Positions 36,189 to 57,467 are shown, counted from the first letter of the stretch. The stretch is DNA of 64,000 nt from Rhodobiaceae bacterium (GCA_020441905.1 JAGRLG010000015.1:765-64764), one strand, 5' to 3'. The notes: a model not told the origin generated them from the letters alone. Program-made: numbers and translations.

Positions 36189-36263
36189 GCAAGGCTCAAG
36201 GGGCGCCCCCGCGAAAGGGGCGCCCCCAATTCGCCCGCCATTTCTCTACTTTCCAGGACGGCC

Positions 36264-36791
36264 ATGCCCGAACAGTCTGCGCTTGGCGCTTTCTATGAAA
36301 AGATTCTCGATGCGACCGGAACCCTGGTCGGCCTGCTGATCGCCCTGATCGCCGTGATGATCAGCATCGAGGTGGCGATGCGCAATTTCGGCCAGGGCGG
36401 CATTTCCTGGCTCAACGAGACCATCGAGTTCGCCATCTATGCAGGCACCTTCGCCGCCGCGCCCTGGGTGCTGCATCAGGGCGCCCATATCCGCGTCGAT
36501 ATCGTGCTGACCCTGCTGCCGAGGCCGGTGGCACTGGCCGTAGAGATCCTCGCCGATCTTTCCGGGGCGGTAATCTGCCTCGCGCTGCTGTATTACGGCG
36601 GCGTCTCGGTGGCCGATGCATGGAGCGACAATACGATCCAGTACAAGAACCTGGCCTGGCCCGAATGGGCGCTGTTTGCCGTGGTTCCGCTGTTCACCGG
36701 ACTGATGGCCATTGAATTCGTGCTGCGGGCGCGCCGCGCGCTGGCGACCGGCAGCGCCGAGCGCGCCGAACCGGCAACCGAGGGCTTTTGA
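36264..36791 (+). CDS. TRAP transporter small permease (DctQ)
   Basis: 4-TM protein between the DctP and DctM genes. Confidence 0.75.
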   Translation: MPEQSALGAFYEKILDATGTLVGLLIALIAVMISIEVAMRNFGQGGISWLNETIEFAIYAGTFAAAPWVLHQGAHIRVDIVLTLLPRPVALAVEILADLSGAVICLALLYYGGVSVADAWSDNTIQYKNLAWPEWALFAVVPLFTGLMAIEFVLRARRALATGSAERAEPATEGF

Positions 36792-36792
36792 C

Positions 36793-38103
36793 ATGGGCTG
36801 GGCCGCTTCGCTGGTAATCATGCTCGGCCTGGTGATCGGCGCCATGGCCATGGGCCTGCCGGTCGCCTTCGCCTTTCTTGGCGCCAATCTTGCCGGAACG
36901 GTGATTTTTTCCGGCGGCGCCGGACTCAACCTCGCCGCCGCCCAGATCATGGAGGCGACGGCGAATTTCACCTTCGCGCCGATCCCGCTGTTTCTCCTGA
37001 TGGGCGAGATCCTGTTCCACTCCGGCGTCGCCTTCAAGGCCATCGGCGCCGTCGACCGCCTGATCGCCCGCGTGCCGGGACGGCTGTCGATCGTCGCAAT
37101 TGTCGGCGGCACCATGTTTTCCTCGCTTTCAGGCTCGACCATCGCCAATACGGCGGTGCTGGGCTCGGTGCTGCTGCCGGAAATGACCCGGCGCGGCTAC
37201 AAGCCGGTCATCGCCATGGGACCGATCATGGCGGTGGGCGGCATCGCCATGCTGATCCCGCCCTCGGCGCTGTCGGTGCTGCTGGGGAGCCTGGCCAATA
37301 TCCCGGTGTCGCAACTGCTGATCGCCGGCATCATCCCCGGCATCATGATGAGCATCCTGTTCGTCGGCTATATCCTGTGGCGCTGCACGCGCGACCCCGA
37401 TCTGGCGCCGGTCTATGAGGTGCAGGACTTCACATTGCGCGAGCGCTGGATGCCGTTCTTCATTTATGTGGCGCCGCTGTTCTCGATCTTCATCGTCGTG
37501 GTGGGCAGCATATTCTTCGGCATCGCCTCGCCGTCGGAGGCCGCTGCGCTGGGCTGCGTCGCCTCAACCGTGGCGGCGGCGTGCTATCGCTCGCTGACTT
37601 GGGCCTCGTTCATGAAGTCGGTGCGCGAGACCGCCAAGGTCACCACCATCATCATGCTGATCATTGCCGGATCGCTGACTTTTTCCCAGATCCTGGCCAT
37701 TTCCGGAGCCACCGACGGCCTGCTGCAACAGATCCAGGCGCTAGCGCTGAGTCCGCTCGGCGCGGTGCTGGTGATGCTCGCGGTGCTGCTGTTTCTCGGC
37801 GCCTTCATGGACCAGGTGTCGATGCTGCTGCTGACCCTGCCCTTTTTCCTGCCGCTGGCGGCAATCCAGGGCATCGACATGCTGTGGCTCGGCGTCTTGT
37901 TCCTGATCGCGATGGAGATCAGCCTGCTGACGCCGCCCTTCGGTCTGTTGCTCTATGTCATGCGCGGCGTCGCCTCGAAGGACATTTCGATGCGGTCGAT
38001 CTATGCCTCGGCGCTGCCGTTCATCGCCATGGAACTGGTGGCGCTGGTGCTGCTGATCGCCTTCCCGGCATTGAGCACCTGGCTGCCGCGCTGGATCGAA
38101 TAG
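36793..38103 (+). CDS. TRAP transporter large permease (DctM)
   Basis: Polytopic protein of ~436 aa in the DctM pattern. Confidence 0.9.
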   Translation: MGWAASLVIMLGLVIGAMAMGLPVAFAFLGANLAGTVIFSGGAGLNLAAAQIMEATANFTFAPIPLFLLMGEILFHSGVAFKAIGAVDRLIARVPGRLSIVAIVGGTMFSSLSGSTIANTAVLGSVLLPEMTRRGYKPVIAMGPIMAVGGIAMLIPPSALSVLLGSLANIPVSQLLIAGIIPGIMMSILFVGYILWRCTRDPDLAPVYEVQDFTLRERWMPFFIYVAPLFSIFIVVVGSIFFGIASPSEAAALGCVASTVAAACYRSLTWASFMKSVRETAKVTTIIMLIIAGSLTFSQILAISGATDGLLQQIQALALSPLGAVLVMLAVLLFLGAFMDQVSMLLLTLPFFLPLAAIQGIDMLWLGVLFLIAMEISLLTPPFGLLLYVMRGVASKDISMRSIYASALPFIAMELVALVLLIAFPALSTWLPRWIE

Positions 38104-46730: not shown

Positions 46731-47210
46731 ATGAAAATACTATATGCGGCGGCGGCCGCTATTGCCGCCCTCATTGCGGTATCGGCACCGGGACTTCACG
46801 CCGAGGGCATGAAAGCGGGGCCTCTTGAATTGTCGGACGCCTGGGCCCGCGCATCCTCCGGACATGAGGGCAATGGCGCCGCCTATGTGACCATCGCCAA
46901 TCATGGCGGCGAAGCCGACCGCCTGATCGGCGCCAAGTCGGACATTGCCGAAAAAACCGAGATCCATAACAATCTCATGGAAGACGGCATCATGAAGATG
47001 CGCCGGGTCGAGAGCATCGACCTCCTGCCCGGCGAGAGCGCCAGGCTGCAACCGGGCGGCTACCACATCATGTTCATCGGCCTGCACAAGCCGCTCGAGG
47101 ACGGCGCCAGCTTTCCGCTGACGCTGGTATTCGAGAAGGGCGGCGAGGTCGCGCTCGAGGTTCCGGTGAAGAAGATTGGTGCCGGCGGCGCAATGAAAAT
47201 GAACCACTAG
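46731..47210 (+). CDS. Periplasmic copper chaperone PCu(A)C
   Basis: Signal peptide. H(M)x10Mx21HxM-type motif (...EIHNNLMEDGIMKMR...GGYHIMFIGL). Confidence 0.8.
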   Translation: MKILYAAAAAIAALIAVSAPGLHAEGMKAGPLELSDAWARASSGHEGNGAAYVTIANHGGEADRLIGAKSDIAEKTEIHNNLMEDGIMKMRRVESIDLLPGESARLQPGGYHIMFIGLHKPLEDGASFPLTLVFEKGGEVALEVPVKKIGAGGAMKMNH

Positions 47211-47386
47211 ACCGAAATTCGGAGTGATTTTGGCCGCCGGGATACCTCCTTTTCTGGCGGCCGCACTCCGGCTTCCCGGGGGGCGAGCCAGATGCGGTCC
47301 TGCCCGCATCGCATCGGGCCCCCCCGGGCTGGCCGGTCCGGCAATCCGGCCGGAGGCGGCAAGGCATGAGGGGGGAAGGACATCCC

Positions 47387-47995
47387 ATGGCACGTATCAT
47401 TATCTATTCGGCGCTGGCGCTGTTTCTCGTTTTCACCGGATACCGGATGCTGAATGAAGGCCGGCCCAGCCTTGGAACGCTTCGCGACATGGCGAGCGCG
47501 CCTTTCACGCCCAAGCAGACGCACCCCTTCACCCTGACCGACCACAACGGGCAGAAGGTGAGCGACAAAAGCTTTCGCGGCCAGTTCCTGCTGGTCTTTT
47601 TCGGCTATACGCATTGCCCTGATGTCTGTCCCACCGGGCTGCTGGTGATGTCACAGGCCATGGACCTTCTCGGGGCCGACGCGGCCAGGGTGACGCCGCT
47701 GTTCATCACCGTGGATCCGGCGCGCGATGGCCCGGAGCAACTCAAGGACTATGTCGCCAATTTTCACCAAAGGCTGGTCGGGCTGACGGGAAGCGAGGCG
47801 CAGATCGAGGATGCCGCCAAGGCCTATAACGCGCGCTATGTACGCCTCGACGGCGAGGACGGCGACAAAGAGAACTACTTCATGGGGCATACCGCGACCA
47901 CCTATCTGACCGGCCCCGACGGCGTGGCGCTGACCAGCTTTGGCCATGAAACCTCGCCCGAGGACATGGCGGCGGAGATCCGCAAATTCTTGTAA
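47387..47995 (+). CDS. SCO1/SenC-family copper-binding thiol-disulfide protein
   Basis: CPDVCP motif with a downstream His, and an N-terminal TM. Start at 47387 or 47366. Confidence 0.85.
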   Translation: MARIIIYSALALFLVFTGYRMLNEGRPSLGTLRDMASAPFTPKQTHPFTLTDHNGQKVSDKSFRGQFLLVFFGYTHCPDVCPTGLLVMSQAMDLLGADAARVTPLFITVDPARDGPEQLKDYVANFHQRLVGLTGSEAQIEDAAKAYNARYVRLDGEDGDKENYFMGHTATTYLTGPDGVALTSFGHETSPEDMAAEIRKFL

Positions 47996-47998
47996 CGA

Positions 47999-48781
47999 TC
48001 AGCGCCGGGCGAGGATGGCGGCCAGGTCATCATGAAGAATGGCGTTGCTGGCGAGAATGTCCGAGCTGGCGAGCAAGGGGCGCGGCGCGGTATCGAAAGC
48101 TGTCACCCGGCCGCCTGCTTCGGTGATCAGAAGCGCGCCGGCGAGGGTATCCCAGGGACTCAATGCCTCCTCGCAGAAGGCATCGAGCCAGCCCCTGGCG
48201 ACATAGGCCAGCACCAGCGCCGGCGCGCCGGTGGTGCGCACATCGCGGGCGACGGCGACGAACTGGCGCACGCGCCAGGCGAAATTGTCGAGCACCGCCG
48301 GATCCTCCGACTGCACCTGGGTCGCCAGGATGGCGCCGCGCAGGCCGGCGGTCGCGGAAACCGCCATGGGCTGGCCATTGTGAAAGGCGCCTTCGCCGCG
48401 CACGGCGGTGAACAGGTCGTCATGGCGCGGGTCGTAGACCACCGCCAGGGCGACGCCGCCGCCATCGCAATAGGCAATGGCGACGCAGTAGAAAGGAAAT
48501 CCGTGGGCATAGCTGGCGGTGCCGTCGAGGGGGTCGACGACCCATAGCGAGCCGCTTTCGATATCGCCGACGGTGCCTTCCTCGCTCAAGATCGCGTCAT
48601 CGGGAAAGGCGGCGGCCAGCACCTCGACAATGGCCTCGTGGGAATGCAGGTCGATTTCGGTGACGACGCTCATGCGCGACTGCGTTTTTTCGCGCACATC
48701 GAAGCCGCGCCCGTGGCCGCGATTCAGGATGCCGCCGGCGGCGCGCGCGGCGGCGATGGCGGTTTGCAGGCGCTCCCTCAT
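47999..48781 (-). CDS. Inositol monophosphatase family protein (SuhB-like)
   Basis: WVVDPLDGT and WDTLAG motifs. Confidence 0.85.
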   Translation of the reverse strand: MRERLQTAIAAARAAGGILNRGHGRGFDVREKTQSRMSVVTEIDLHSHEAIVEVLAAAFPDDAILSEEGTVGDIESGSLWVVDPLDGTASYAHGFPFYCVAIAYCDGGGVALAVVYDPRHDDLFTAVRGEGAFHNGQPMAVSATAGLRGAILATQVQSEDPAVLDNFAWRVRQFVAVARDVRTTGAPALVLAYVARGWLDAFCEEALSPWDTLAGALLITEAGGRVTAFDTAPRPLLASSDILASNAILHDDLAAILARR

Positions 48782-48906: not shown

Positions 48907-49788
48907 CTAGACTTGCCCGCCCACGGCGCGGGCCTGCAGCCGGTCCCATTCGGCATCGGTTTCCGCCTGCAGACCGGCGATCTGGTCCGCCGACAGGTGG
49001 CGGTAGCGCTTCTGTTCCTTCAGATAGGTTTCCACGCTCTGGCTCCGGGTCCCGACGCTGAGGCGGTAGTCCACCCCGTCGAAAACCTCGAAGAGCGGGA
49101 AGACACCCGATTCCACCGCCTTGCGCGCCGTGCGCACGGCGGCGTTATCGGGCAGCCCCCAGCCGGGAAGGCAGGGCACGAGGACGATGATGACCTTGGT
49201 GCCACGGATCGATTTGGCCTTTTCCACCTTGGCGGCAAGATCGTTGAGATGGGACGGACTGACGGTGGCGATATAGGGAATGCGATGGGCGGCAAGGATC
49301 TCGATGAGATTCTTCTTGCGCGTCGTCTTGCCCGCCGGGGTGCTGCCGGTGACCGCGTTTTTCGGCGTCGAGGAACTCTTCTGCCCCCCGGTGTTCATGT
49401 AACCCTCGTTGTCGAAGCAGATATAGAGGATGTCCTCGTTGCGCTCGGCCGCCGAGGACAGGGCCTGAAGGCCGATATCATAGGTGCCGCCATCGCCGGC
49501 AAGGCAGATTACCGTGGTGTCCGGCTTGCCCTGTGCCAGCAGGGCGCGCTTGATGCCGCTGGCCGATGCGGCGCCGGATTCCAGCGTGGTGTGAAAGACC
49601 GGAATCTTCACCGCGCTCATCGGGTAGCCGCCGCAGATGACGGCGGAGCACGACGGCGACACAACGCCGATCGCATCCTTTCCCACCGTGTTGAGGATGA
49701 CCCGCAAGGCCAGCGCCTCGACACAGCCGCCGCAAGCGACATGCCCGGAAGAAAACTGGCCCTCGTCCTGGTATTTGATCAGTTCCAT
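48907..49788 (-). CDS. 2-oxoacid:ferredoxin oxidoreductase beta subunit (TPP-binding, PorB-like)
   Basis: CGGC... Fe-S cysteines and the TPP motif GDGGTYDIG...NEGYMNTGGQ. Confidence 0.85.
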   Translation of the reverse strand: MELIKYQDEGQFSSGHVACGGCVEALALRVILNTVGKDAIGVVSPSCSAVICGGYPMSAVKIPVFHTTLESGAASASGIKRALLAQGKPDTTVICLAGDGGTYDIGLQALSSAAERNEDILYICFDNEGYMNTGGQKSSSTPKNAVTGSTPAGKTTRKKNLIEILAAHRIPYIATVSPSHLNDLAAKVEKAKSIRGTKVIIVLVPCLPGWGLPDNAAVRTARKAVESGVFPLFEVFDGVDYRLSVGTRSQSVETYLKEQKRYRHLSADQIAGLQAETDAEWDRLQARAVGGQV

Positions 49789-49792
49789 GGCT

Positions 49793-50950
49793 TCATTCCA
49801 CCCAGACCGGTCCGACGACCGGTTCTTTGCCCGAAAATTCGCTGACCAGCTGCTCGATCCTGCCCGGCGCGACATTGACGCCGCCAACCCCGGTGAGCAG
49901 GCCGTGGAGACGCGGCGCGCCGGCCAGACCGTAAAGCGCGCTTTTCAGCTCCTGGTGCAGAACGCCGCCGGTGCCGGGCGAATAGTTGCGGTCGAGCACC
50001 AGGGCGCATGGCACGCCGGCCAGCGCCTCGCGCAGCGCGGCGACGGGCAGCGGGCGGAACAGCCTGACTTTCAGCATGCCCACCGCGACCCCCTTGTCAC
50101 GCATTTCGTCCACGGCGTCGCGCACCGTGCCACACATCGAACCCATGGTGACAATCACCACCTCGGCGTCCTCGGTGCGGTAGAATTCCAGCGGGCCGTA
50201 GCTGCGCCCGGTGAGGGCGCCCCAGTCGCGCCCGGCGTCGATGACGAGATCGTTGACCGTCTGCATCGAGGCGTCCAGTTCCCGCCGGCTGCGGTTCCAG
50301 TTGGCCTGGTCGTTGGGCGCGCCAAAGGAACGGCCGATCTCGGTATCGAGGCGGATATCGCTCCTGAAGGCGGGGAGGAATTCGTCGACCAGGGACTGGG
50401 AGGGTACATCCACCGGCTCGACGGCATGGGAGACATAAAAGGCGTCATGGCTGATCATGACCGGGATCCTGGCGGTTTCGGCAACGCGGAAGGCCTGGAT
50501 GACGCTGTCGAGGGATTCCTGCGGCGTTTCGCTATAGAGCTGGATCCAGCCGGTATCGCGCTGGGCCAGGCTGTCGAGCTGATCGGGCCAGAAGCCCCAG
50601 GGCGCGGCGGGGGTGCGGTTGACATTGCACATGACGATCGAGGCCCGGGCGCCGGAGGCGTAGTGCAGCAATTCGTGCATCAGCAGCAGGCCCTGGGACG
50701 ACGTGGCGGTGAAGACCCGCGCTCCGGTCAGCGAGGCTGAAATGCAGGCCGACATGGCGGAATGCTCCGATTCCGGCGTCAGCAGTTCGGCCGCGATCTG
50801 CCCTTCCGCCTGCAACTCGGTGATCTTTTCAAGGATCGGCGTCTGCGGGGTGATCGGATAGACCGGTATGACGTCCGGGCGGGCCAGCCGGACGCCGTGG
50901 GCCACTGCGTGATTGCCGCTCAAAAGCAGGCCGTTGGCATTTCCGTGCAT
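49793..50950 (-). CDS. 2-oxoacid:ferredoxin oxidoreductase alpha subunit (PorA-like)
   Basis: ...GNHAVAHGVRLARPDVIPVYPITPQT... is a typical POR_N start. Confidence 0.85.
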   Translation of the reverse strand: MHGNANGLLLSGNHAVAHGVRLARPDVIPVYPITPQTPILEKITELQAEGQIAAELLTPESEHSAMSACISASLTGARVFTATSSQGLLLMHELLHYASGARASIVMCNVNRTPAAPWGFWPDQLDSLAQRDTGWIQLYSETPQESLDSVIQAFRVAETARIPVMISHDAFYVSHAVEPVDVPSQSLVDEFLPAFRSDIRLDTEIGRSFGAPNDQANWNRSRRELDASMQTVNDLVIDAGRDWGALTGRSYGPLEFYRTEDAEVVIVTMGSMCGTVRDAVDEMRDKGVAVGMLKVRLFRPLPVAALREALAGVPCALVLDRNYSPGTGGVLHQELKSALYGLAGAPRLHGLLTGVGGVNVAPGRIEQLVSEFSGKEPVVGPVWVE

Positions 50951-50954
50951 CTGT

Positions 50955-52604
50955 CTACCCCCGGGTGTCTTCGTACATCATGACCGAGCCGGTCGGGCAC
51001 TCCTCGACGCAGAGGCCGCAGCCCTTGCAATAGTCGGTCTTGACCTCGTAGCCGTGCTCGAGCTTGGTGATCGCCATATCCGGACAATAGAAATAGCAGT
51101 TGTCGCAATAGATGCAGGTGCCGCAGCTGAAGCAGCGGCTGGCCTCGGCCAGCGCCGCGGCGCGGCTCAGGCCCTGCTGCACTTCGCCAAAACCTTCAAG
51201 CCGCTCGGCGACCCCGGCGGTGGCGGCGATATTGCGGGCAACCGGCGGATAGTAGTGGGTGTTGATCTCGCTGAAGGGCACTTCCGGCCCTTTGGCGCCA
51301 GCGGCGCCGTCCGCCTCGGCGCCGATAAAGCGGGCGATTCCGGCTGCCGCCTCCTTGCCCATGCCGACCGCCTGAGTCACGAAGCGATCCATGGACGCGA
51401 CATCGCCGCCGGAGAAGATTCCGGCAGCGCTGGTCTGCCAGGACCCGTCGGTGGCGACAAGCGGTCCGGCGCTGTCGATGAGCCCGCTCCAGCGCGAGGT
51501 GTCGGCATTCTGGCCGATCGAGGGAACGACCGCGTCGGCGGCAAGCTCGAACTCGGTGCCCGCCATGGGCGCGAGCGAGAATTCGCCGCGCTTGTCGCCG
51601 GGCTTGAAATCGACGCGGATGCAGCTGAGCGTCAGGCCGCCGGCCCCGGCATCGAGCGACTTCATCATGGCGCCGGTTACGAATGTGATGCCTTCCTCCA
51701 GCGCTTCGTCGACCTCCACCCTTTGCGCCGGCAGCAAGTGCTCCGGCTCAAGGGCGAGCACCGTGACCTCTTTGCCGAGCCGGCGCGCCGTGCGCGCGAC
51801 ATCCATGGCGGCGCTGCCGCCGCCGACGACGACAACGCGGGGGCCGGTCTGGCTCGGCGCGCCGGAATTGGCCGCGGCGAGAAATTCGGCGCTGTCGATG
51901 ACCCAGGGCTGGGCATAATCGAGGCCGGGCAGAACCTTGGACGAGGTGGCGCCGGTGGCGAGATAGACCGCGTCATGGTCGCGGCGCAGTTTCTCCAGCG
52001 CCGCGGCATCGAGAATCTCGCTGTTGAGATGCACTTCGACGCCGAGATCGAGAATACGCTGGACTTCGCCGTCGAGGATCGCCTTGTCGAGGCGGTAGTC
52101 GGGAATGCCATAGCGCAGCAGGCCGCCCAGCTGGCCGCGCGATTCGAACAGCACGACGCGCAAGCCCCGGCGGCGCAGCTGATAGGCCGCCGACAGCCCC
52201 GCCGGGCCGCCGCCGACGATCGCCACCGACTGGCCGCGCTCGGCCGCCGGAGCATCGAAGCGCCAGCCCTCGGCCAGGGCGCTGTCGCCGACAAAGCGCT
52301 CCAGGCTGCAAATACTCACCGTTTCGTCATGGAACTGGCGGTTGCAGGCGCTCTCGCAAGGGTGATGGCAGATGCGCCCGGCAATGGCCGGGAAAGGATT
52401 GTTGTCGACGAGCGTTTCCCAGGCGGCGCGGTAGTCCTGTTTGCCGACATGGCGGATCCACTCGGCGATGCGCCCGGAAACCGGGCAGGCGCCAAGGCAG
52501 GGCGAAGGCAGGTTGCGATAGTCGGGCATGGCGCTGCGCCATGTTCCGGTGAGCCGCGACTGGGAAGACTGGGTCGTCCAAAGGGAAGATTGCAGTAGAT
52601 TCAT
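50955..52604 (-). CDS. GltD-like NAD(P)H flavoprotein fused to a 2x[4Fe-4S] delta-ferredoxin domain
   Basis: N-terminal Fe-S cysteines (CLGACP, CHHPCESAC). GGGPAGLSAA and VVVGGGSAAMD dinucleotide folds. C-terminal CIYCDNCYFYCP and CKGCGLCVEECP. It occupies the porD position between porG and porA. Confidence 0.8.
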   Translation of the reverse strand: MNLLQSSLWTTQSSQSRLTGTWRSAMPDYRNLPSPCLGACPVSGRIAEWIRHVGKQDYRAAWETLVDNNPFPAIAGRICHHPCESACNRQFHDETVSICSLERFVGDSALAEGWRFDAPAAERGQSVAIVGGGPAGLSAAYQLRRRGLRVVLFESRGQLGGLLRYGIPDYRLDKAILDGEVQRILDLGVEVHLNSEILDAAALEKLRRDHDAVYLATGATSSKVLPGLDYAQPWVIDSAEFLAAANSGAPSQTGPRVVVVGGGSAAMDVARTARRLGKEVTVLALEPEHLLPAQRVEVDEALEEGITFVTGAMMKSLDAGAGGLTLSCIRVDFKPGDKRGEFSLAPMAGTEFELAADAVVPSIGQNADTSRWSGLIDSAGPLVATDGSWQTSAAGIFSGGDVASMDRFVTQAVGMGKEAAAGIARFIGAEADGAAGAKGPEVPFSEINTHYYPPVARNIAATAGVAERLEGFGEVQQGLSRAAALAEASRCFSCGTCIYCDNCYFYCPDMAITKLEHGYEVKTDYCKGCGLCVEECPTGSVMMYEDTRG

Positions 52605-52619
52605 CGCTCCGCTTTCCCG

Positions 52620-53162
52620 CTAGATGGCGCCGCGCGCCTGGTCGTAGGCATATTGGCAGGCGGCGATATTCTGCTGTTTCTTGGCCGGTGCCGTCTGCTC
52701 GATGACGCCGCACATGGTCTTGATGCCGGGTTGGTCCAGGGTGGCGACAAAGGCGCCCAGAAGCGCGGAATTGACCACCTTGCCCATGTCGAACCTGCGC
52801 GCGATCTCGGCGCCATTCACGGTGACAATCCGGTAGTCGCCAAGGGCGTCAAAAGCGTCCCGGCCCTTGGCGGTATTGACCACGATCACGGTTTCGCTGT
52901 CGACGTTGCGCAGGAAATTGGCGTCGAGCAGGCTGCCGTCGAAACACAGCATGGCCGAGGCGCGCTCGATGTTGCAGCGCCGCCGCACCGGCTTGTCGTC
53001 GACCCGGATCGAGGAGGTGACCGGCGTGCCGCGCCGTGCCCCGCCATAGGTGGCAAAGGTCTGGACGAACTTGCCCTCGGCATAGAAGGCCTGCGCCAAC
53101 TGGTTGCCGGCGGTCTGTGCGCCCTGGCCGCCTCGGCCGAGTATGATGATCTCGCGCATCAA
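52620..53162 (-). CDS. 2-oxoacid:ferredoxin oxidoreductase gamma subunit (PorG-like)
   Basis: IIILGRGGQGAQTAGNQLA...YGGARRG pattern. Confidence 0.8.
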   Translation of the reverse strand: MMREIIILGRGGQGAQTAGNQLAQAFYAEGKFVQTFATYGGARRGTPVTSSIRVDDKPVRRRCNIERASAMLCFDGSLLDANFLRNVDSETVIVVNTAKGRDAFDALGDYRIVTVNGAEIARRFDMGKVVNSALLGAFVATLDQPGIKTMCGVIEQTAPAKKQQNIAACQYAYDQARGAI

Positions 53163-53312
53163 CCTGAATCCCCCCGTGTTCCGATTATCGCCTCACCCTG
53201 CCCTTGCGGCGCCCCGGCGGCCTGGCACTGGCCGGGCCCGACCGGGCCCGCATTGGTGGGCGCCAGCGCAAGAATATGGCCGCGTATGTGGTCTGCCGCC
53301 GGCCCATTCCAT

Positions 53313-53332
53313 ACTTTAGAAATATTCAAAGT
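53313..53332. promoter_or_regulatory. Imperfect 20-bp palindrome upstream of the por cluster (candidate LysR-type operator)
   Basis: ACTTTAGAAA|TATTCAAAGT has 8 of 10 arm pairs. It lies in an AT-rich patch ~150 bp upstream of the porG start. Confidence 0.3.
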
Positions 53333-53431
53333 TAATCAGTCCCTTACGCCCCCTCACGCCGGGTCAAGACTTTGAAGCGATCGCCGCGCCAAGGCAACAG
53401 ATTTACGTTTTGTCGCGTCACTATGCCCGCT

Positions 53432-54337
53432 TCATGGCTGGCAATGGCGCAGAAGCTGGCCGCGCACCCAGCGGTGCACCTTGTCGGTATCGAGACGGCG
53501 GTGCCAGATCAGCTGGTGAGACATCGGCTCGATGTCGAAGGGCAGCGGATGGGTGGCAAGGGCGAAATGGTCGGCAAAATAGGACGCGGTGCGCCGCGTG
53601 AAGACCCCGATCAAATCGCTTTGCCTCAGCAGGCTCGGCACGAGGGTAAAATTTCCAAGCGATATGCGCGCGATCCGTTCGCGCCCAATGCGCGCCAGCA
53701 TGGTGTCGAAGGCCGCCTTCCGGTCGCCGCCGGAACTGACGACGAGATGGGGAAACGACAGCAGGGCGTCGATGTCGAACGGCTTGCGGCGGTCCTTGAT
53801 CGGGTGATCCGGCCGGCACAGGCAGACAAGTTCCTCGCTGAAGGCGGGACTGCTCATGATCCGGGGCGGCAACTGGTCGAACCAGCCCAGGGCAAGGTCG
53901 ATTTCCTGGCTTTCGATCAGGCGAATGGCGTGGTCGCGGTCGCTGGTGCGCAAATCGATCGATATGCCCGGCGCGAGCCTGGCCAGTGCGCCGAGAAAGG
54001 GCAGAAATACCGGCAGGCTGAGCCGGTCCGGGGCGCCAATGGCAAATTGCGCCGTGCTGGTTGCCGGATCTAGATCGGCGGCGCGGGAAAGGGATCGTTG
54101 CGTTGTCAGCATGATCTCTTCGGCGGCACGGCCCAATTCTTCGGCCCGCGGCGTCGGGATCAGGCCGCCCGGCGTGCGCACGAAAAGCGGGTCATCGAAT
54201 TGTTCGCGAAGGCGCTTGAGCGCGTTGGATATGGCCGATTGGGTCTTGCCCAGCCGTTCGCCGGTGCGGGTGACGCTGCGTTCCTCCATCAGGGCGTGAA
54301 GGACGATGAAAAGGTTCATGTCGAAGTTTCGCAGCAT
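53432..54337 (-). CDS. LysR-family transcriptional regulator
   Basis: N-terminal HTH MNLFIVLHALMEERSVTRTGERLGKTQSAISNALKRLR. ATG 54337 chosen. Confidence 0.9.
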   Translation of the reverse strand: MLRNFDMNLFIVLHALMEERSVTRTGERLGKTQSAISNALKRLREQFDDPLFVRTPGGLIPTPRAEELGRAAEEIMLTTQRSLSRAADLDPATSTAQFAIGAPDRLSLPVFLPFLGALARLAPGISIDLRTSDRDHAIRLIESQEIDLALGWFDQLPPRIMSSPAFSEELVCLCRPDHPIKDRRKPFDIDALLSFPHLVVSSGGDRKAAFDTMLARIGRERIARISLGNFTLVPSLLRQSDLIGVFTRRTASYFADHFALATHPLPFDIEPMSHQLIWHRRLDTDKVHRWVRGQLLRHCQP

Positions 54338-54531: not shown

Positions 54532-56457
54532 ATGACGCTCGAGCAGACCCCCGCGCGGCTCACCAATTGGGTGATCGCGGCCTTGTCCACGGCGATGTGC
54601 GTGGCCTGCATCTTGTGGAATATCGAAGCGCCGACGCGCCTCGGCGTGGCCGTCCTGACCCAGCAATACATGGCCCTGCAATTGGGGCTGGCGTTGACAA
54701 TCGCCTATCTGCGCTTCGGTTTTACCGGCAAGGCGAAGACGCGGATCGGCTGGTTCGACGGCGCCATCGCGGCCATTGCCTTCATGACGCTTCTCTATGC
54801 GGCCTGGGATTTTTCCTGGCTCCTGAGCGAGCAATTCTACCGCCCCTGGCAGATCACCGTGATCGGCACGGTGGTGACGATCACGGTGATGGAAGGCATC
54901 CGGCGCCGCGCCGGATCGATGCTCTTTGCCATCGTCGCGGTGTTTCTCGTCTATGCCCTGTTCGCCGACCAGGTGCCCGGCCGCCTGATCGGCAAGGAAC
55001 TCAGCCCGGTGCGGCTGGTGCAGTATATCGGCTTTGATTCCAGCGCCGTCTTTTCCTCGCCGCTGGCGGTGGGAACAATCATCGTTCTGCTGTTCGTCTT
55101 CTTCGGCCGGCTGCTGTTCGCCGCCGGCGGAGGCGCCTTTTTTACCGATCTCGCCATGGCGGCGACCGGCAGGTCGCGGGGCGGCAGCGCCAAGATCTCG
55201 GTCGTCGGTTCGGCGCTGTTCGGCTCGATCTCGGGCAGCGCGGTGTCGAATGTGGTGACCACCGGGGTGGTGACCATCCCGCTCATGGAGAAGGGCGGCT
55301 ATTCCAGCCGCGACGCCGGCGCGATCGAGTCCGTCGCCTCGACCGGCGGCCAACTGACGCCGCCGATCATGGGCGCTGCGGCCTTCCTGATGGCCGAGTT
55401 TCTCGACATCTCCTACATGGCGGTGGCGGCGGCAGCCCTGCTCCCGGCGGCGCTCTATTATTTCAGCGTATTCCTACAGGTCGACCTCATTGCCGGGCGC
55501 GACCATATCCGCTCCAGCGACAGCGACAGCCTGACCGTGGGCGAGGTCCTGGGCGCGGGCTGGCATTTCGCGCTGCCCTTCGGAGTGCTGCTGGCCGCGC
55601 TCTTCTGGTGGCGGATCGACCCTGAGGACAGCGCCCTGCTGGCCTCGATCGCCATCGTCGTGGTGGGCTTCCTGCGCGGCTATCGTGGCCAGCGCCTGAC
55701 CCTGCCGGCGCTCGGGCGCGTGTTCGTCGAGACAGGAACCTCGATGGTCGACCTGATCCTCGTCGTCGCCGCGGCGGGCTTCGTCATCGGCGTGCTCAAT
55801 ATTACCGGGCTGGGCTTCGCCCTCACCCTGGTTCTGGTGGATACCATCGGTTCAAACGTCATCCTGCTGCTTTTCATGTCGGCGCTGATCTGCATCGTCC
55901 TTGGCATGGGAATGCCGACATCCGGCATCTATGTCCTGCTCGCCGCGCTGGTCGCGCCATCGCTGGTCAAGGCCGGCATCGAGCCGATCGCGGCCCATCT
56001 CTTCATTCTCTATTTCGGCATGATGTCGATGATCACGCCGCCGGTGGCGCTGGCCGCCTTCGCGGCGGCGACCATCACCAAGGCGGATCCGCTGGCGACC
56101 GGCTTTGCCGCCATGCGCATCGGCTGGGCCTCGTTCATCCTGCCTTTCGTCTTTGTCGCCTCGCCCGCGCTTCTCCTCGAGGGCAGTTGGGGCGAGATCG
56201 CGGCGACATTCTCGCTGTCGATCGCCGGCATCGGAGCGGTGACGGCGGCAATGGTGGGGTTCTGGAGCCGGCCACTCGGGCTGGCGGCGCGCGCCGCGCT
56301 GATGCTGCTCGGCGTGATGGCGCTGCCGCTCGGCTTTGTGCCGGGCGCCGAGGCGCTGCACATTCCCTCGGCCATGGCGGTGGCCGCCATTATCGCCGGA
56401 CTCACCATTCGCGGCGCGCGGCGCGCGCCAAGCGGCGGCAGCTCGAAAACTGTATGA
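54532..56457 (+). CDS. TAXI-type TRAP transporter fused permease (DctQM-like)
   Basis: Polytopic protein of ~641 aa in the TIGR02123-like pattern, adjacent to a TAXI binding protein. Confidence 0.85.
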   Translation: MTLEQTPARLTNWVIAALSTAMCVACILWNIEAPTRLGVAVLTQQYMALQLGLALTIAYLRFGFTGKAKTRIGWFDGAIAAIAFMTLLYAAWDFSWLLSEQFYRPWQITVIGTVVTITVMEGIRRRAGSMLFAIVAVFLVYALFADQVPGRLIGKELSPVRLVQYIGFDSSAVFSSPLAVGTIIVLLFVFFGRLLFAAGGGAFFTDLAMAATGRSRGGSAKISVVGSALFGSISGSAVSNVVTTGVVTIPLMEKGGYSSRDAGAIESVASTGGQLTPPIMGAAAFLMAEFLDISYMAVAAAALLPAALYYFSVFLQVDLIAGRDHIRSSDSDSLTVGEVLGAGWHFALPFGVLLAALFWWRIDPEDSALLASIAIVVVGFLRGYRGQRLTLPALGRVFVETGTSMVDLILVVAAAGFVIGVLNITGLGFALTLVLVDTIGSNVILLLFMSALICIVLGMGMPTSGIYVLLAALVAPSLVKAGIEPIAAHLFILYFGMMSMITPPVALAAFAAATITKADPLATGFAAMRIGWASFILPFVFVASPALLLEGSWGEIAATFSLSIAGIGAVTAAMVGFWSRPLGLAARAALMLLGVMALPLGFVPGAEALHIPSAMAVAAIIAGLTIRGARRAPSGGSSKTV

Positions 56458-56495
56458 AACGGTGCGGCAAGGCACCAGAGAGAAGGGAGAGAAAC

Positions 56496-57467
56496 ATGAA
56501 GACCTTGAAAAGAACCATCGCCGCGGGGCTTGCCGCCCTTGCGCTGTCGGCCACGGCGGTGTCGGCGCAAGTGGTGACCATCGCCACCGGGGCCCAGGGA
56601 TCGCTGGCCTATAATTCCGGCCAGGCGGTCGCCAAGGTGGCGAATGATGTGGGAATCGTCGCGCGTACCCAGCCGCTGGTCGGCTACCTGCCGCTGCTCG
56701 ACAGCGGCGAGATCGATTTCGGCTTTTCCAACGGTGTCGAGGCCGAATACGCCCTGACCGGCACCGGGAATTATGACCGCGCCACCCCCAATCTGCGGCT
56801 GGTCGGGGTCATGTTTCCGCTGCGCACCGGGATCATGGTCCCGGCCGATACCGGAATCGCCACGATCTCGGACCTCAAGGCACAGACGGGCAAGCTTCGC
56901 ATCGCCTCCGAATATACCTCCTCGACGATCATTCCCTATTATATCGGCGGCGCGCTCGCCAATGGCGGGATGACCTATGACGACTTCCAGAAGGTGCCGG
57001 TGGCAAGCTTCGTCGCCGGGATCCACGCGCTGGGCGACGGGCTGGTCGATATCGCGCTGGTCAGCCTCAATGCCGGCGCCGGCAAGGAAGCCGAGGTGAA
57101 GCTGCAGGGCCGCGGCGGGCTGCAATATGTATCGCTCGACAATTCGCCCGAGGGCCTCGCCGCGTTCAAGAAATTCCTGCCCGCAGGCGACATTATTTCG
57201 ATGCCCCAGAACGACAATATTCCAGGCCTCAAGAAGGCGGCGAATATCATCCAGATCCCGTGGATGATGCTGACCCATGCCAAGGCGGACGAGGAACTCG
57301 TCTACCGAATGACCAAGGCGATCGCCGAAAACAACGAAGCTCTCAAGGCATCGTTCGGCGCCTTTGGCGCCGCCAAGAAGGAAGCAATGGCGCCGGCGAG
57401 CAAGGTGGCCTACCACCCCGGCGCGCTGCGTTACTTCAAGGAAGCCGGCATTCCGGTCGGCAACTAG
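56496..57467 (+). CDS. TAXI-family TRAP solute-binding protein
   Basis: Signal peptide, ...VVTIATGAQGSLAYNSGQAVAKV... and ...HPGALRYFKEAG. Confidence 0.85.
   Translation: MKTLKRTIAAGLAALALSATAVSAQVVTIATGAQGSLAYNSGQAVAKVANDVGIVARTQPLVGYLPLLDSGEIDFGFSNGVEAEYALTGTGNYDRATPNLRLVGVMFPLRTGIMVPADTGIATISDLKAQTGKLRIASEYTSSTIIPYYIGGALANGGMTYDDFQKVPVASFVAGIHALGDGLVDIALVSLNAGAGKEAEVKLQGRGGLQYVSLDNSPEGLAAFKKFLPAGDIISMPQNDNIPGLKKAANIIQIPWMMLTHAKADEELVYRMTKAIAENNEALKASFGAFGAAKKEAMAPASKVAYHPGALRYFKEAGIPVGN

What the first reader, a model, noticed from the sequence alone, without database searches (positions are those of the whole stretch)
48907..53162. Four-subunit 2-oxoacid:ferredoxin oxidoreductase in which the delta ferredoxin is fused to a GltD-like NAD(P)H flavoprotein
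Seen:
- The gene order is gamma, then a 549-aa fusion, then alpha, then beta, with 4-15 nt gaps.
- The fusion sits where porD normally lies.
- It combines N-terminal GltD-type Fe-S cysteines, two dinucleotide-binding folds and a C-terminal 2x[4Fe-4S] domain (CIYCDNCYFYCP, CKGCGLCVEECP).

Inference: electrons from TPP-dependent 2-oxoacid decarboxylation could flow through the fused clusters to FAD and on to NAD(P)+. In reverse, NADPH could drive reductive carboxylation. Either way no free ferredoxin is needed.

From memory: an NADP+-reducing 2-oxoglutarate oxidoreductase with an extra FAD subunit was reported in Azoarcus evansii. A fused version in a nitrite-assimilating, oxidase-assembling rhizobial-type genome appears uncharacterised. 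The substrate and the oxygen tolerance are unknown.
Basis: partly seen in the sequence, partly recalled or inferred. Interest (0 to 1): 0.65.

Follow-up and report, generated by a model that had tools for sequence, protein, structure and literature searches.

The report
NAD-linked 2-oxoacid oxidoreductase with built-in flavoprotein
This is a real, intact four-gene operon for a 2-oxoacid oxidoreductase whose small ferredoxin subunit is fused to an NAD(P)-binding flavoprotein, so it probably passes electrons straight to NAD+ instead of to free ferredoxin; the design is widespread, and a related three-subunit version appears to have been purified in 2003, so it is an uncharacterised variant rather than a new kind of enzyme.

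Summary
On the minus strand lie gamma (52620-53162), a 549-aa fusion (50955-52604), alpha (49793-50950) and beta (48907-49788), with gaps of 15, 4 and 4 nt.

- **Not an artefact.** The same 549-aa ORF occurs in four independent assemblies. The gene order is kept in all 23 genome loci recovered and in distant relatives (34-40% identity).
- **Part of the enzyme.** Some relatives fuse gamma to the flavoprotein as well.
- **Refinement.** The GltD-like Fe-S domain is circularly permuted. Its first Cys pair (RCFSCG, C491/C494) sits after the flavin module, directly before the delta-type 2x[4Fe-4S] domain. Solved StnC and NfnABC structures share this layout.
- **Cofactors.** Sixteen Fe-S cysteines are invariant, enough for four clusters. 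The usual NADPH-binding 'YRR' is replaced by 'ALE', so NAD+ is predicted.
- **Catalytic subunits.** Alpha and beta keep their catalytic and cluster residues.

Most likely function: irreversible 2-oxoacid + CoA + NAD+ -> acyl-CoA + CO2 + NADH. The substrate is unknown.

The flavoprotein belongs to a curated but unnamed family (NF009410). Relatives pair with Kor-type and NifJ-type enzymes. The Aromatoleum Kor-type cluster matches the purified NADP+-dependent Azoarcus evansii enzyme.

Verdict: new variant of a known kind, moderate interest.

The parts
52620..53162 (-). gamma subunit (POR domain, 179-180 aa; the likely start is the ATG at 53159)
   Evidence: Pfam POR E 1.4e-32. TIGR02175 PorC_KorC scores 124 bits against a cut-off of 81.1. 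Gene callers give 179 aa.
50955..52604 (-). 549-aa flavoprotein-delta fusion, in the gene position normally held by porD
   Evidence: NF009410/PRK12771 scores 545.5 bits against a cut-off of 516. AF2 model: pLDDT 82.8, pTM 0.83. Best structural matches are NfnA(Bfu) and StnC, TMq 0.77-0.78.
52266..52517 (-). residues 30-113: GltD-type Fe-S region lacking its first Cys pair (C36, C40, C79, C83, C87, C99; E102 in 'LERF')
   Evidence: Pfam Fer4_20 matches only profile positions 31-112. The Cys residues are invariant in 120 homologues. E102 is kept in most members of the wider family, with Lys or Gln in some; C99 is specific to this clade.
51315..52247 (-). residues 120-430: FAD- and NAD(P)-binding Rossmann folds (GGGPAG; GGGSAAMD)
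   Evidence: Pyr_redox_2 E 1.2e-30. Aligns to NfnB, GltD and DPD structures.
51723..51767 (-). residues 280-294, 'VTVLALEPEHLLPAQ': the end of strand beta-2 of the NAD(P) fold. Leu-Glu stands where NADPH-dependent relatives have Arg-Arg.
   Evidence: NfnB, StnC and NfnA(Bfu) have 'YRRT' here. L285 and E286 are invariant in the clade. About 80 of 125 family representatives have YRR; the window's clade has x-L/V/I-E.
51117..51215 (-). residues 464-496: the permuted N-terminal element of the GltD Fe-S domain, ending in RCFSCG (C491, C494)
   Evidence: It aligns to residues 15-46 of NfnB. It matches PRK13984 profile positions 167-202, E 3e-6. Moving it in front of residue 33 raises the Fer4_20 score from 67.2 to 99.8 bits with profile coverage 3-112. 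pLDDT is 86-91.
50967..51116 (-). residues 497-546: delta-type 2x[4Fe-4S] ferredoxin domain (CIYCDNCYFYCP, CKGCGLCVEECP)
   Evidence: Apart from NF009410 itself, the best NCBIfam hits are PorD models: PorD_Arch 56.3 bits, and TIGR02179 52.1 bits against a cut-off of 60.05. PDB 9bt4_G (PorD) E 1e-9. All 8 Cys are invariant.
49793..50950 (-). alpha subunit (385 aa; POR_N + PFOR_II)
   Evidence: Pfam. Closest solved structure is the M. acetivorans PFOR alpha chain 9bt4_B, E 3e-87. YPITP, the ESE motif and the substrate-carboxylate Arg (NVNR) are conserved.
48907..49788 (-). beta subunit (293 aa; TPP-binding, one [4Fe-4S])
   Evidence: TPP_enzyme_C. Aligned to 9bt4_C, E 2e-58: GDG...N(E)GYMNTG and the four cluster Cys are conserved.
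53163..53431 (-). 269-nt intergenic region upstream of gamma, the presumed operon promoter region
   Evidence: Sequence read. The consensus promoter scan found nothing here, so this is an inference only.
53432..54337 (-). LysR-family regulator (301 aa) directly upstream on the same strand and divergent from the transporter genes; a possible regulator
   Evidence: HTH_1 + LysR_substrate. Start taken. This adjacency is not conserved in other lineages.
54532..57467 (+). TAXI-type TRAP transporter: fused permease 54532-56457 and solute-binding protein 56496-57467. A possible uptake system for the substrate or its precursor.
   Evidence: DctM E 3e-84 and NMT1_3. TIGR02122 TRAP_TAXI scores 122.9 against a cut-off of 84.35. 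The functional link is inferred from adjacency only.

Best explanation
The four genes encode one soluble complex: a ferredoxin-independent, pyridine-nucleotide-linked 2-oxoacid oxidoreductase (CoA-acylating).

Proposed mechanism:
1. Alpha, beta and gamma form a Por/Vor-type catalytic core. It decarboxylates a 2-oxoacid on TPP and makes the acyl-CoA.
2. The two electrons leave one at a time through the beta [4Fe-4S] cluster.
3. They pass to the two clusters of the delta-type domain at the C-terminus of the 549-aa subunit.
4. They move to the distal GltD-type cluster, ligated by C491/C494 (immediately before the delta domain) together with C36 and C87.
5. They move to the flavin-proximal cluster (C40, C79, C83, and E102 or C99).
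6. They collect on FAD, which reduces NAD+ by hydride transfer.

The circular permutation places the ligands of the distal cluster next in sequence to the ferredoxin domain, which hard-wires the chain. Because the 2-oxoacid/acyl-CoA couple is about 200 mV more negative than NAD+/NADH, the reaction runs in the oxidative, catabolic direction.

The substrate is not identified. Pyruvate-type or branched-chain 2-oxoacids and arylglyoxylates are the main candidates.

Shown by the evidence: gene architecture, conservation, cofactor ligands, the permutation, and the association of this flavoprotein family with OFOR genes. Inferred: complex formation, order of electron transfer, NAD+ preference, direction and substrate.
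For: Complex membership:
- The gamma-fusion-alpha-beta order is kept in all 23 genome loci and in four independent assemblies of the same sequence.
- It is also kept on further contigs and around representatives only 34-40% identical.
- Eleven 50%-identity cluster representatives of 710-780 aa carry gamma fused to the N-terminus of the flavoprotein-delta protein.
- No separate delta gene or motif exists in the window.
- The C-terminal domain best matches PorD models.

Cofactors and catalytic residues:
- Sixteen Fe-S cysteines are invariant in 120 homologues.
- The alpha and beta catalytic and cluster residues are intact.

Permutation:
- It is supported.
- The whole-chain structural matches to StnC and NfnA(Bfu) agree with it.
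- In StnC this module is a non-bifurcating NADPH site feeding a linear Fe-S chain (PMC10482914).

NAD preference:
- 'ALE' replaces 'YRR'.

Precedents:
- The same flavoprotein layout lies next to KorA/KorB-type genes in Aromatoleum aromaticum EbN1 and Variovorax.
- It lies next to nifJ in Phenylobacterium, Methylovirgula and Aeromonas.
- PMC10134865 lists the alpha subunit of the purified A. evansii 2-oxoglutarate:NADP+ oxidoreductase among GltD/NfnB homologues.
- The NAD+-dependent phenylglyoxylate dehydrogenase has gene order gamma, delta, alpha, epsilon, beta.
Against: - No biochemical or genetic data exist for any Por-type member. Ten literature searches found none.
- NAD versus NADP is predicted from two residues only.
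- The delta-type domain scores below the PorD family cut-offs (52.1 against 60.05).
- The same domain is present in relatives that pair with NifJ, which has its own ferredoxin domain. It may therefore be a docking or relay ferredoxin rather than 'delta' in the strict sense.
- Cluster-to-cluster distances could not be measured, because model coordinates are not returned.
- In ten Rhodobacterales/Halieaceae loci the cassette lies beside a bona fide 4-hydroxybenzoyl-CoA reductase, which needs low-potential electrons. NAD+ may therefore not be the only acceptor.
Confidence: 0.68

Rival explanations
1. Dual-acceptor electron generator. The complex oxidises a central 2-oxoacid (2-oxoglutarate or pyruvate) mainly to supply low-potential electrons, through its exposed ferredoxin-type clusters, to a reductive enzyme such as 4-hydroxybenzoyl-CoA reductase. 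The NAD(P) site serves as an overflow or balancing outlet.
For: - In ten loci the cassette lies in an island with a benzoate-CoA ligase family gene (TIGR02262, 776 bits) and a three-subunit 4-hydroxybenzoyl-CoA reductase. Its beta subunit matches 1rm6_B at E 8.5e-85 and keeps the [4Fe-4S] insertion.
- In Azoarcus-type aromatic metabolism korAB plus bzdV are described as the ferredoxin-regenerating system.
- From memory, the A. evansii KGOR paper states that electrons can go to ferredoxin or NADP+.
Against: - The window and most other loci have no such reductase nearby.
- No ferredoxin gene lies in the window.
- The island is confined to one lineage.
Confidence: 0.14
2. Flavin-based electron bifurcation or confurcation. 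The NfnB-like FAD couples 2-oxoacid-derived low-potential electrons with a second donor or acceptor, for example NADH plus ferredoxin.
For: The flavoprotein is homologous to NfnB, whose FAD bifurcates. The conserved Arg164 corresponds to NfnB R201.
Against: - The cassette contains no NfnA-like or HydBC-like partner subunit.
- The closest structural relatives with the same permuted layout (StnC) use this module as a non-bifurcating entry site.
- NAD+ reduction by a 2-oxoacid is already strongly exergonic.
Confidence: 0.07
3. Reverse physiological direction: an NAD(P)H-driven 2-oxoacid synthase (reductive carboxylation of an acyl-CoA), as the first reader suggested as an alternative.
For: OFOR chemistry is reversible in principle. 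The architecture would allow electron entry at FAD.
Against: - NAD(P)H (about -320 mV) cannot drive a couple near -500 mV without energy coupling, and no coupling module is present. This is established thermodynamics.
- The hosts are heterotrophs and the neighbours are catabolic: transporters, ligase, hydratases, aminotransferases.
Confidence: 0.03
4. The 549-aa protein is a free-standing ferredoxin:NAD(P)+ or other GltD-like oxidoreductase that is merely co-transcribed. Alpha, beta and gamma would work as a three-subunit OFOR with external ferredoxin.
For: Relatives sit beside NifJ, which is complete by itself. GltD-like modules serve many partners.
Against: - Por-type cores need delta, and none is encoded separately.
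- Translationally coupled 4-nt gaps.
- Gamma-flavoprotein fusions.
- Invariant synteny down to 34% identity.
Confidence: 0.05

Closest known systems
Three-subunit 2-oxoglutarate:NADP+ oxidoreductase (KGOR) of Azoarcus evansii (Ebenau-Jehle, Boll & Fuchs 2003, J Bacteriol 185:6119), and its apparent gene cluster on Aromatoleum aromaticum EbN1 plasmid 2
   Same: - An OFOR that reduces a pyridine nucleotide through an extra FAD/Fe-S subunit.
- The EbN1 flavoprotein (WP_011255089.1, 595 aa) aligns end to end with the window protein (30.5% identity).
- It has the same layout: C-x3-CP, C-x3-C-x3-C, the FAD/NAD(P) folds, a late 'RCxxC' element, then a C-terminal 2x[4Fe-4S] domain.
- PMC10134865 classes KGOR-alpha with GltD/NfnB homologues.
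   Different: - Its catalytic subunits are Kor-type: a fused alpha-gamma of 622 aa plus a beta of 351 aa. They are not Por-type alpha, beta and gamma.
- The cofactor site is of a different type ('VVVRSG').
- From memory, the enzyme is NADP+-specific and 2-oxoglutarate-specific.
- The primary paper could not be read here, so the link between the EbN1 genes and the purified enzyme is an inference.
Phenylglyoxylate:NAD+ oxidoreductase PadEFGHI (EC 1.2.1.58; Hirsch et al. 1998)
   Same: - A Por-type OFOR that reduces NAD+ through a FAD subunit.
- Its gene order starts gamma, delta, alpha.
- It is often co-operonic with an aryl-CoA ligase.
- The window's alpha, beta and gamma hit the PadG, PadI and PadE models at E 4e-85, 1e-63 and 4e-24.
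   Different: - Five separate subunits: delta (PadF, 78-residue model) and the flavoprotein epsilon (PadH) are separate genes.
- All Pad equivalog cut-offs are missed by a wide margin (286/700, 216/700, 85/300, 36/150).
- No PadH model appears among the top hits of the flavoprotein core.
GltD-like module of StnC (Sporomusa ovata StnABC, PDB 8oh5) and NfnA of Bfu-type NfnABC (PDB 9bov, 9n5u)
   Same: - Best sequence and fold matches over nearly the whole chain (TMq 0.77-0.78).
- The same circularly permuted Fe-S domain, followed by a ferredoxin-type region.
- In StnC the module is a non-bifurcating NADPH site feeding a linear cluster chain.
   Different: - Those proteins are about 950-1180 aa long, with [2Fe-2S] and NuoG/FdhF-like domains, and they work in transhydrogenases.
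- They carry the NADPH-type 'YRR' motif.
- They have no OFOR partners.
Four-subunit pyruvate:ferredoxin oxidoreductase PorABDG (e.g. Methanosarcina acetivorans, PDB 9bt4)
   Same: The closest solved relatives of alpha (E 3e-87), beta (E 2e-58) and the C-terminal delta-type domain (E 1e-9). Catalytic residues and cluster ligands are conserved.
   Different: Delta is a free protein of about 85 aa, and the acceptor is free ferredoxin. There is no flavoprotein.
Pyruvate:NADP+ oxidoreductase (PNO) of Euglena gracilis and Cryptosporidium (from memory)
   Same: A PFOR made NADP+-reducing by a covalently attached flavoprotein.
   Different: It is a single chain. The flavoprotein is a cytochrome-P450-reductase-type FMN/FAD module unrelated to GltD.

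Membership tests
Por/Vor-type multi-subunit 2-oxoacid:ferredoxin oxidoreductase | alpha subunit with POR_N and PFOR_II domains, the YPITP motif and a substrate-binding Arg | tested here: met
Por/Vor-type multi-subunit 2-oxoacid:ferredoxin oxidoreductase | beta subunit with the GDG...N TPP motif and four Cys for one [4Fe-4S] cluster | tested here: met
   (alignment to 9bt4_C).
Por/Vor-type multi-subunit 2-oxoacid:ferredoxin oxidoreductase | gamma subunit (POR domain) above the family cut-off | tested here: met
   TIGR02175 scores 124 against 81.1.
Por/Vor-type multi-subunit 2-oxoacid:ferredoxin oxidoreductase | free-standing delta ferredoxin subunit (about 80-130 aa) | tested here: not met
   The window has no separate delta ORF or motif, and the related loci have none either. 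The domain is fused.
Por/Vor-type multi-subunit 2-oxoacid:ferredoxin oxidoreductase | delta-type 2x[4Fe-4S] domain reaching the PorD_KorD cut-off | tested here: inconclusive
   Both CxxCxxCxxxCP motifs are present and invariant, but TIGR02179 scores 52.1 against a cut-off of 60.05.
Por/Vor-type multi-subunit 2-oxoacid:ferredoxin oxidoreductase | equivalog-level identity to a pyruvate or 2-ketoisovalerate enzyme (substrate assignment) | tested here: not met
   PorA_Arch 399/550, VorA 349/646, PorB 304/405, and the PRK11864 (3-methyl-2-oxobutanoate dehydrogenase subunit beta) model 320/405.
Por/Vor-type multi-subunit 2-oxoacid:ferredoxin oxidoreductase | free ferredoxin or flavodoxin as electron acceptor | not testable with these tools
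   Needs an enzyme assay.
NCBIfam NF009410 (PRK12771) 'NAD(P)-binding protein' | whole-protein score at or above the curated cut-off of 516 bits | tested here: met
   545.5 bits, covering profile positions 26-564 of 566.
GltD/NfnB-like NAD(P)H oxidoreductases | Fer4_20 Fe-S domain plus an adrenodoxin-reductase-like FAD/NAD(P) module | tested here: met
GltD/NfnB-like NAD(P)H oxidoreductases | contiguous N-terminal Fe-S domain (first Cys pair before the C-x3-CP motif) | tested here: not met
   The first Cys pair is at residues 491/494, a circular permutation.
GltD/NfnB-like NAD(P)H oxidoreductases | Arg pair ('YRR') at the end of strand beta-2, binding the 2'-phosphate of NADPH | tested here: not met
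   The window has 'ALE' (L285/E286 invariant in the clade).
StnC / Bfu-type NfnA | permuted GltD module followed by a ferredoxin-type region | tested here: met
StnC / Bfu-type NfnA | N-terminal [2Fe-2S] domain and a C-terminal NuoG/FdhF-like domain | tested here: not met
   The protein is only 549 aa. The matches cover only residues 95-680 of those chains.
Phenylglyoxylate:NAD+ oxidoreductase PadEFGHI | equivalog scores for PadE, PadF, PadG and PadI | tested here: not met
   85.5/300, 35.8/150, 285.8/700 and 215.7/700.
Phenylglyoxylate:NAD+ oxidoreductase PadEFGHI | separate delta and epsilon (FAD) subunits | tested here: not met
   A single fused 549-aa protein.
Three-subunit NADP+-dependent KGOR (A. 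evansii type) | flavoprotein subunit with permuted GltD module plus a C-terminal 2x[4Fe-4S] domain | tested here: met
   Full-length alignment to the EbN1 homologue that precedes korA/korB-type genes.
Three-subunit NADP+-dependent KGOR (A. evansii type) | Kor-type catalytic subunits (fused alpha-gamma of about 620 aa, beta of about 350 aa) | tested here: not met
   The window has split Por-type alpha, beta and gamma. TIGR03710 scores 122.5 against 482.75. KorA matches only partially, at 30% identity.
Three-subunit NADP+-dependent KGOR (A. evansii type) | specificity for 2-oxoglutarate and NADP+ | not testable with these tools
   Sequence predicts NAD rather than NADP. The substrate is unknown.

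The most novel reading that the evidence does not exclude
The cassette represents a widespread, never-assayed class of NAD+-specific, ferredoxin-independent Por-type 2-oxoacid oxidoreductases in aerobic Proteobacteria. These would act on aromatic or other non-central 2-oxoacids in place of lipoate-dependent dehydrogenase complexes.

In Rhodobacterales and Halieaceae the same complex sits in an island with an aryl-CoA ligase and a genuine 4-hydroxybenzoyl-CoA reductase. Textbook 'aerobes' would then run oxygen-independent, anaerobe-type aromatic chemistry, with the OFOR either producing the aryl-CoA or supplying the low-potential electrons.
Probability: 0.2. Interest if true: 0.7.

Novelty: new variant of a known kind. 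Interest (0 to 1): 0.42.

Why it matters
OFORs are usually treated as ferredoxin-dependent enzymes of anaerobes. A hard-wired route from TPP to NAD+ lets an aerobe use OFOR chemistry without a low-potential ferredoxin pool. In effect it is a compact, lipoate-free alternative to the 2-oxoacid dehydrogenase complexes.

- **Spread.** The family is large, with many 50%-identity clusters. It occurs in cultured marine Rhodobacterales, and it pairs with three different OFOR types. Databases still call it only 'NAD(P)-binding protein' or 'glutamate synthase small subunit'.
- **Annotation.** Recognising it would correct many annotations and metabolic reconstructions that infer ferredoxin reduction or glutamate synthesis from these genes.
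- **Engineering.** The circular permutation explains how a GltD module is wired to a ferredoxin domain. The YRR/xLE switch gives a simple, testable determinant of NADP versus NAD use.
- **Pathway lead.** The link to 4-hydroxybenzoyl-CoA reductase in Rhodobacterales is a concrete lead to an unstudied aromatic pathway.

Tried and rejected
- **Artefact.** A frameshift or assembly artefact is rejected. The identical ORF is in four assemblies and homologues are of uniform length.
- **Degenerate alpha or beta.** Rejected.
- **Literature.** No paper on the Por-type fused family was found. Two search calls failed on syntax. The key primary paper (PMC225024) and a review (PMC2650882) are not held, so statements about A. 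evansii KGOR subunit sizes and specificity rest on memory. Papers followed up and found irrelevant:
  - Methylosinus transcriptome
  - SAR86
  - Pelobacter
  - R. palustris AadN, a fused NfnAB
  - an Nfn distribution review
- **Promoters and terminators.** The scan found nothing above chance.
- **Substrate from neighbours.** Inconclusive, because the flanks differ between lineages:
  - LysR plus TAXI-TRAP in the window
  - GntR, cupin and TonB receptor
  - MFS transporter
  - aminotransferases
  - MaoC-type dehydratases
  - molybdenum hydroxylases
  - CoA-transferase
- **Substrate from pocket residues.** Not interpretable: the window has 'PWGFW' where M. acetivorans has 'PINIW'.
- **Ligase-gamma fusions.** tblastn alignments spanning ligase and gamma in L009, L014, L016 and L017 are not fusions where checked: separate ORFs are seen in L009, L014 and L016. 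Only L031 is a verified in-frame fusion.
- **PadH.** It was expected to be GltD-like, but no PadH model appears among the top hits.
- **Source organism.** The window's own genome is not in the genome collection; the best match is 74% identical. The organism was therefore not named.

Full report
**1. Observation**

The minus strand between 48907 and 53162 carries four tightly packed ORFs.

| Gene | Coordinates | Size | Key matches |
|---|---|---|---|
| gamma | 52620-53162 (ATG at 53159 is the likelier start) | 179-180 aa | POR domain; TIGR02175 124 bits vs cut-off 81 |
| fusion | 50955-52604 | 549 aa | Fer4_20, Pyr_redox_2, Fer4_21/Fer4 |
| alpha | 49793-50950 | 385 aa | POR_N + PFOR_II |
| beta | 48907-49788 (true start is this ATG; the ORF extends to 49887) | 293 aa | TPP_enzyme_C |

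- The junctions were read directly. The gaps are 15, 4 and 4 nt, each with a Shine-Dalgarno-like purine run, which suggests translational coupling.
- They are the only CxxCxxCxxxCP motifs in any frame of the 64-kb window, so no separate delta subunit is encoded nearby.
- Domain E-values range from 1e-20 to 1e-163, far beyond chance.

**2. Not an artefact**

- The identical 549-aa protein, flanked by the same genes, occurs on contigs from four independent assemblies: three ENA assemblies and one Logan run.
- Of more than 5,500 database homologues, the best 120 are all 506-556 aa long and 61-74% identical.

**3. The cassette is conserved**

- All 23 loci recovered from species-representative genomes keep the gamma-fusion-alpha-beta order wherever the contig allows. 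They include Ruegeria marisrubri, Sulfitobacter sp. JB4-11, and Shimia, Halieaceae, Burkholderiaceae, Thalassospiraceae and Hyphomicrobiales MAGs.
- The order also holds on further contigs and around representatives only 34-40% identical.
- In a library of 1.84 billion 50%-identity cluster representatives, 120 of the best 150 hits carry both the late RCxxCG element and a C-terminal pair of ferredoxin motifs.
- Eleven of those, 710-780 aa long, have the OFOR gamma subunit fused to their N-terminus (blastp E 1e-6 to 1e-26, ten of them at or below 3e-14). This gene-fusion link is the strongest in-silico evidence that the flavoprotein is a subunit of the OFOR.

**4. Anatomy of the fusion**

- Pfam Fer4_20 matches only profile positions 31-112 at the N-terminus. 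The canonical first Cys pair is missing there.
- HMMER alignments to NfnB (4ylf_B, 5jca_L) place query residues 464-496 (…ERLEGFGEVQQGLSRAAALAEASRCFSCG) on NfnB residues 15-46, the very start of the canonical domain.
- The same segment matches PRK13984 profile positions 167-202, just upstream of the positions matched by residues 36-429 (E 3e-6).
- As a direct test I moved residues 464-496 in front of residue 33. Fer4_20 rose from 67.2 to 99.8 bits and coverage extended to profile positions 3-112.
- The GltD Fe-S domain is therefore circularly permuted.
- The same order is seen in the solved StnC (8oh5) and Bfu-type NfnA (9bov, 9n5u) chains. These are also the best fold matches to an AlphaFold model (pLDDT 82.8, pTM 0.83), with TMq 0.77-0.78 over about 590 columns. 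NfnB, GltD and DPD give 0.62-0.66 over about 430 columns.

**5. Cofactor ligands**

- In 120 homologues, 16 Fe-S cysteines are invariant or nearly so: C36, C40, C79, C83, C87, C99, C491, C494, C497, C500, C503, C507, C526, C529, C532 and C536.
- By analogy with DPD, GltS and NfnB (PMC8097209), I infer:
  - the distal cluster uses C491, C494, C36 and C87;
  - the flavin-proximal cluster uses C40, C79, C83 and a fourth ligand.
- The fourth ligand is E102 in 'LERF', which is conserved in most of the wider family (Lys or Gln in some members). C99 is specific to the window's clade.
- C497, the first ligand of the delta-type domain, lies only three residues after C494. The permutation thus joins the ferredoxin domain directly to the distal GltD cluster.

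**6. NAD versus NADP**

- NADPH-dependent relatives (NfnB, StnC, NfnA-Bfu) read 'YRRT' at the end of strand beta-2 of the second Rossmann fold. The window protein reads 'ALEP'.
- L285 and E286 are invariant in its clade.
- Across 125 family representatives about 80 have YRR. The window's nearest clusters have x-L/V/I-E.
- An acidic residue at this position is the classical NAD determinant. I therefore predict NAD+. This is an inference.

**7. Catalytic subunits**

- Alpha is closest to the M. acetivorans four-subunit PFOR (9bt4_B, E 3e-87). It keeps YPITP, the ESE motif and the carboxylate-binding Arg.
- Beta (9bt4_C, E 2e-58) keeps GDG…N(E)GYMNTG and all four cluster cysteines.
- NCBIfam places the subunits in the Por/Vor group (PorA_Arch 399, VorA 349, PadG 286, OOR 220 bits; Kor- and Ior-type models score much lower). 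No equivalog cut-off is reached.
- The substrate therefore cannot be read from homology.

**8. Context and substrate**

In the window:
- A LysR regulator (53432-54337) sits upstream on the same strand.
- A divergent TAXI-type TRAP transporter (54532-57467) and a dienelactone-hydrolase-family gene follow.
- The next neighbours downstream of beta are housekeeping or cytochrome-oxidase assembly genes.

Elsewhere the flanks vary: GntR/cupin/TonB receptor, MFS transporter, aminotransferases, MaoC dehydratases, CoA-transferase, SDR and XDH-family molybdenum enzymes.

Ten Rhodobacterales/Halieaceae loci share an island made of:
- DctPQM;
- a benzoate-CoA-ligase-family gene (TIGR02262, 776 bits) directly upstream of gamma;
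- the cassette;
- Rrf2 and GNAT genes;
- a three-subunit enzyme whose FAD subunit matches 4-hydroxybenzoyl-CoA reductase beta (1rm6_B, E 8.5e-85), including the Cys-rich [4Fe-4S] insertion.

In one MAG the ligase and gamma are a single 720-aa ORF. This points to aromatic acyl-CoA metabolism in that lineage. None of these genes is in the window, so the substrate here remains open.

**9. Mechanism proposed**

- Proposed path: TPP-dependent decarboxylation on alpha/beta, then the beta cluster, the two delta-type clusters, the distal GltD cluster, the proximal cluster, FAD and finally NAD+.
- In StnC the same module is a non-bifurcating two-electron/one-electron converter on a linear cluster chain (PMC10482914). 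The cassette has no NfnA-like or HydBC-like partner, so bifurcation is unlikely.
- The 2-oxoacid couple lies near -500 mV and NAD(P)H at -320 mV (established values).

**10. What is known**

- The flavoprotein scores above the curated cut-off of NCBIfam NF009410 (PRK12771), which is named only 'NAD(P)-binding protein'.
- A 2021 review of GltD-like modules lists GltS, DPD, Nfn and AegA, but no OFOR partner.
- A tblastn search of annotated plasmids and chromids showed that the family pairs with other OFOR types:

| Organism | Flavoprotein homologue | Neighbouring OFOR genes |
|---|---|---|
| Aromatoleum aromaticum EbN1 (plasmid 2) | 595 aa, 30.5% identity, same layout | KorA-type (622 aa) + KorB-type (351 aa) |
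| Variovorax sp. PDNC026 | about 30% identity | KorA/KorB types |
| Phenylobacterium zucineum | 546 aa, 40.7% identity | single-chain nifJ PFOR |
| Methylovirgula sp. HY1 | 37.6% identity | single-chain nifJ PFOR |
| Aeromonas caviae | about 36% identity | NifJ-type PFOR |

- PMC10134865 lists 'KGOR-alpha' of the purified A. evansii 2-oxoglutarate:NADP+ oxidoreductase among GltD/NfnB homologues.
- From memory, that enzyme has three subunits of about 63, 62 and 37 kDa plus FAD, which fits the EbN1 cluster. The paper itself is not held.
- The other characterised analogue is NAD+-dependent phenylglyoxylate dehydrogenase PadEFGHI. Its gene order is gamma, delta, alpha, epsilon, beta, and it is often co-operonic with an aryl-CoA ligase. 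Its delta and flavoprotein are separate, and its models are far from matched here.

**11. Verdict**

- The principle of an OFOR made NAD(P)-reducing by a GltD-type flavoprotein with its own ferredoxin domain is already known, and the family is widespread.
- Three things are not described in anything I could find:
  - the Por-type cassette in which this protein replaces delta;
  - the permutation that wires it;
  - the NAD-type clade found in aerobic Proteobacteria.
- I rate it a new variant of a known kind, with moderate interest. The Rhodobacterales link to 4-hydroxybenzoyl-CoA reductase is the most promising lead.

Noticed in passing
L031:2632-16970 (GCA_048265765.1); also L009, L012, L013, L014, L016, L017, L018, L019, L022: Ten Rhodobacterales/Halieaceae loci place the cassette in a conserved island. 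It holds DctPQM, a benzoate-CoA-ligase-family gene, the cassette, Rrf2, GNAT and a three-subunit 4-hydroxybenzoyl-CoA-reductase-type enzyme. The reductase's beta subunit matches 1rm6_B at E 8.5e-85 and keeps the extra [4Fe-4S] insertion. This is an 'anaerobic' aromatic enzyme in nominally aerobic marine bacteria.
   Followed up: partly
L031:5835-7997: In one MAG the benzoate-CoA-ligase-family protein and the OFOR gamma subunit form a single in-frame 720-aa ORF with a 14-residue linker. In L009, L014 and L016 the two genes are adjacent and in frame but separated by a stop codon.
   Followed up: partly
P0146, P0163, P0171, P0176, P0197, P0199, P0202, P0208, P0222, P0244, P0254: These are 710-780-aa cluster representatives in which the OFOR gamma subunit is fused to the N-terminus of the flavoprotein-delta protein. 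P0225 and P0264 (about 1,100 aa) instead carry an N-terminal extension of about 580 aa. The P0264 extension includes a TPP-domain-like stretch, so these may be IOR-type fusions.
   Followed up: partly
L039:5938-12227 (Phenylobacterium zucineum plasmid); L040:4902-11228 (Methylovirgula sp. HY1 plasmid): A homologue of the flavoprotein (38-41% identity) sits immediately upstream of a single-chain nifJ PFOR and a 'dihydroorotate dehydrogenase-like protein'. This three-gene arrangement is conserved and suggests a pyruvate:NAD(P)+ system in these Alphaproteobacteria.
   Followed up: partly
L028:921-4375: On one contig carrying P0068, the cassette lies directly downstream of a phage-type integrase, AlpA and DUF3631 genes, suggesting carriage on an integrative element. 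P0068 is labelled Dehalococcoidales in one source, but a second contig has a TonB-dependent receptor as a neighbour (L029), so that label may be a binning error.
   Followed up: no
window:46731-47995: A PCuAC-like copper chaperone ORF (46731-47210) and a SCO1/SenC ORF (47366-47995) lie about 1 kb downstream of beta, separated from it by an inositol-monophosphatase-family gene (47999-48781). PCuAC was identified by eye only; SCO1/SenC and Inositol_P are supported by the precomputed Pfam hits. This fits an aerobic host.
   Followed up: no
window:4603-6030, 7221-7988 and 35322-38085: These regions give weak tblastn hits to an AMP-dependent acyl-CoA ligase (26% identity), to a Pyr_redox-type flavoprotein (25-28% identity) and to a second DctP/DctM TRAP transporter. 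None resembles the Rhodobacterales island genes closely.
   Followed up: no
fusion residue 328 (window 51619-51621): Cys328 is invariant in all 120 close homologues but is not part of any predicted cluster motif. Its role is unknown.
   Followed up: no
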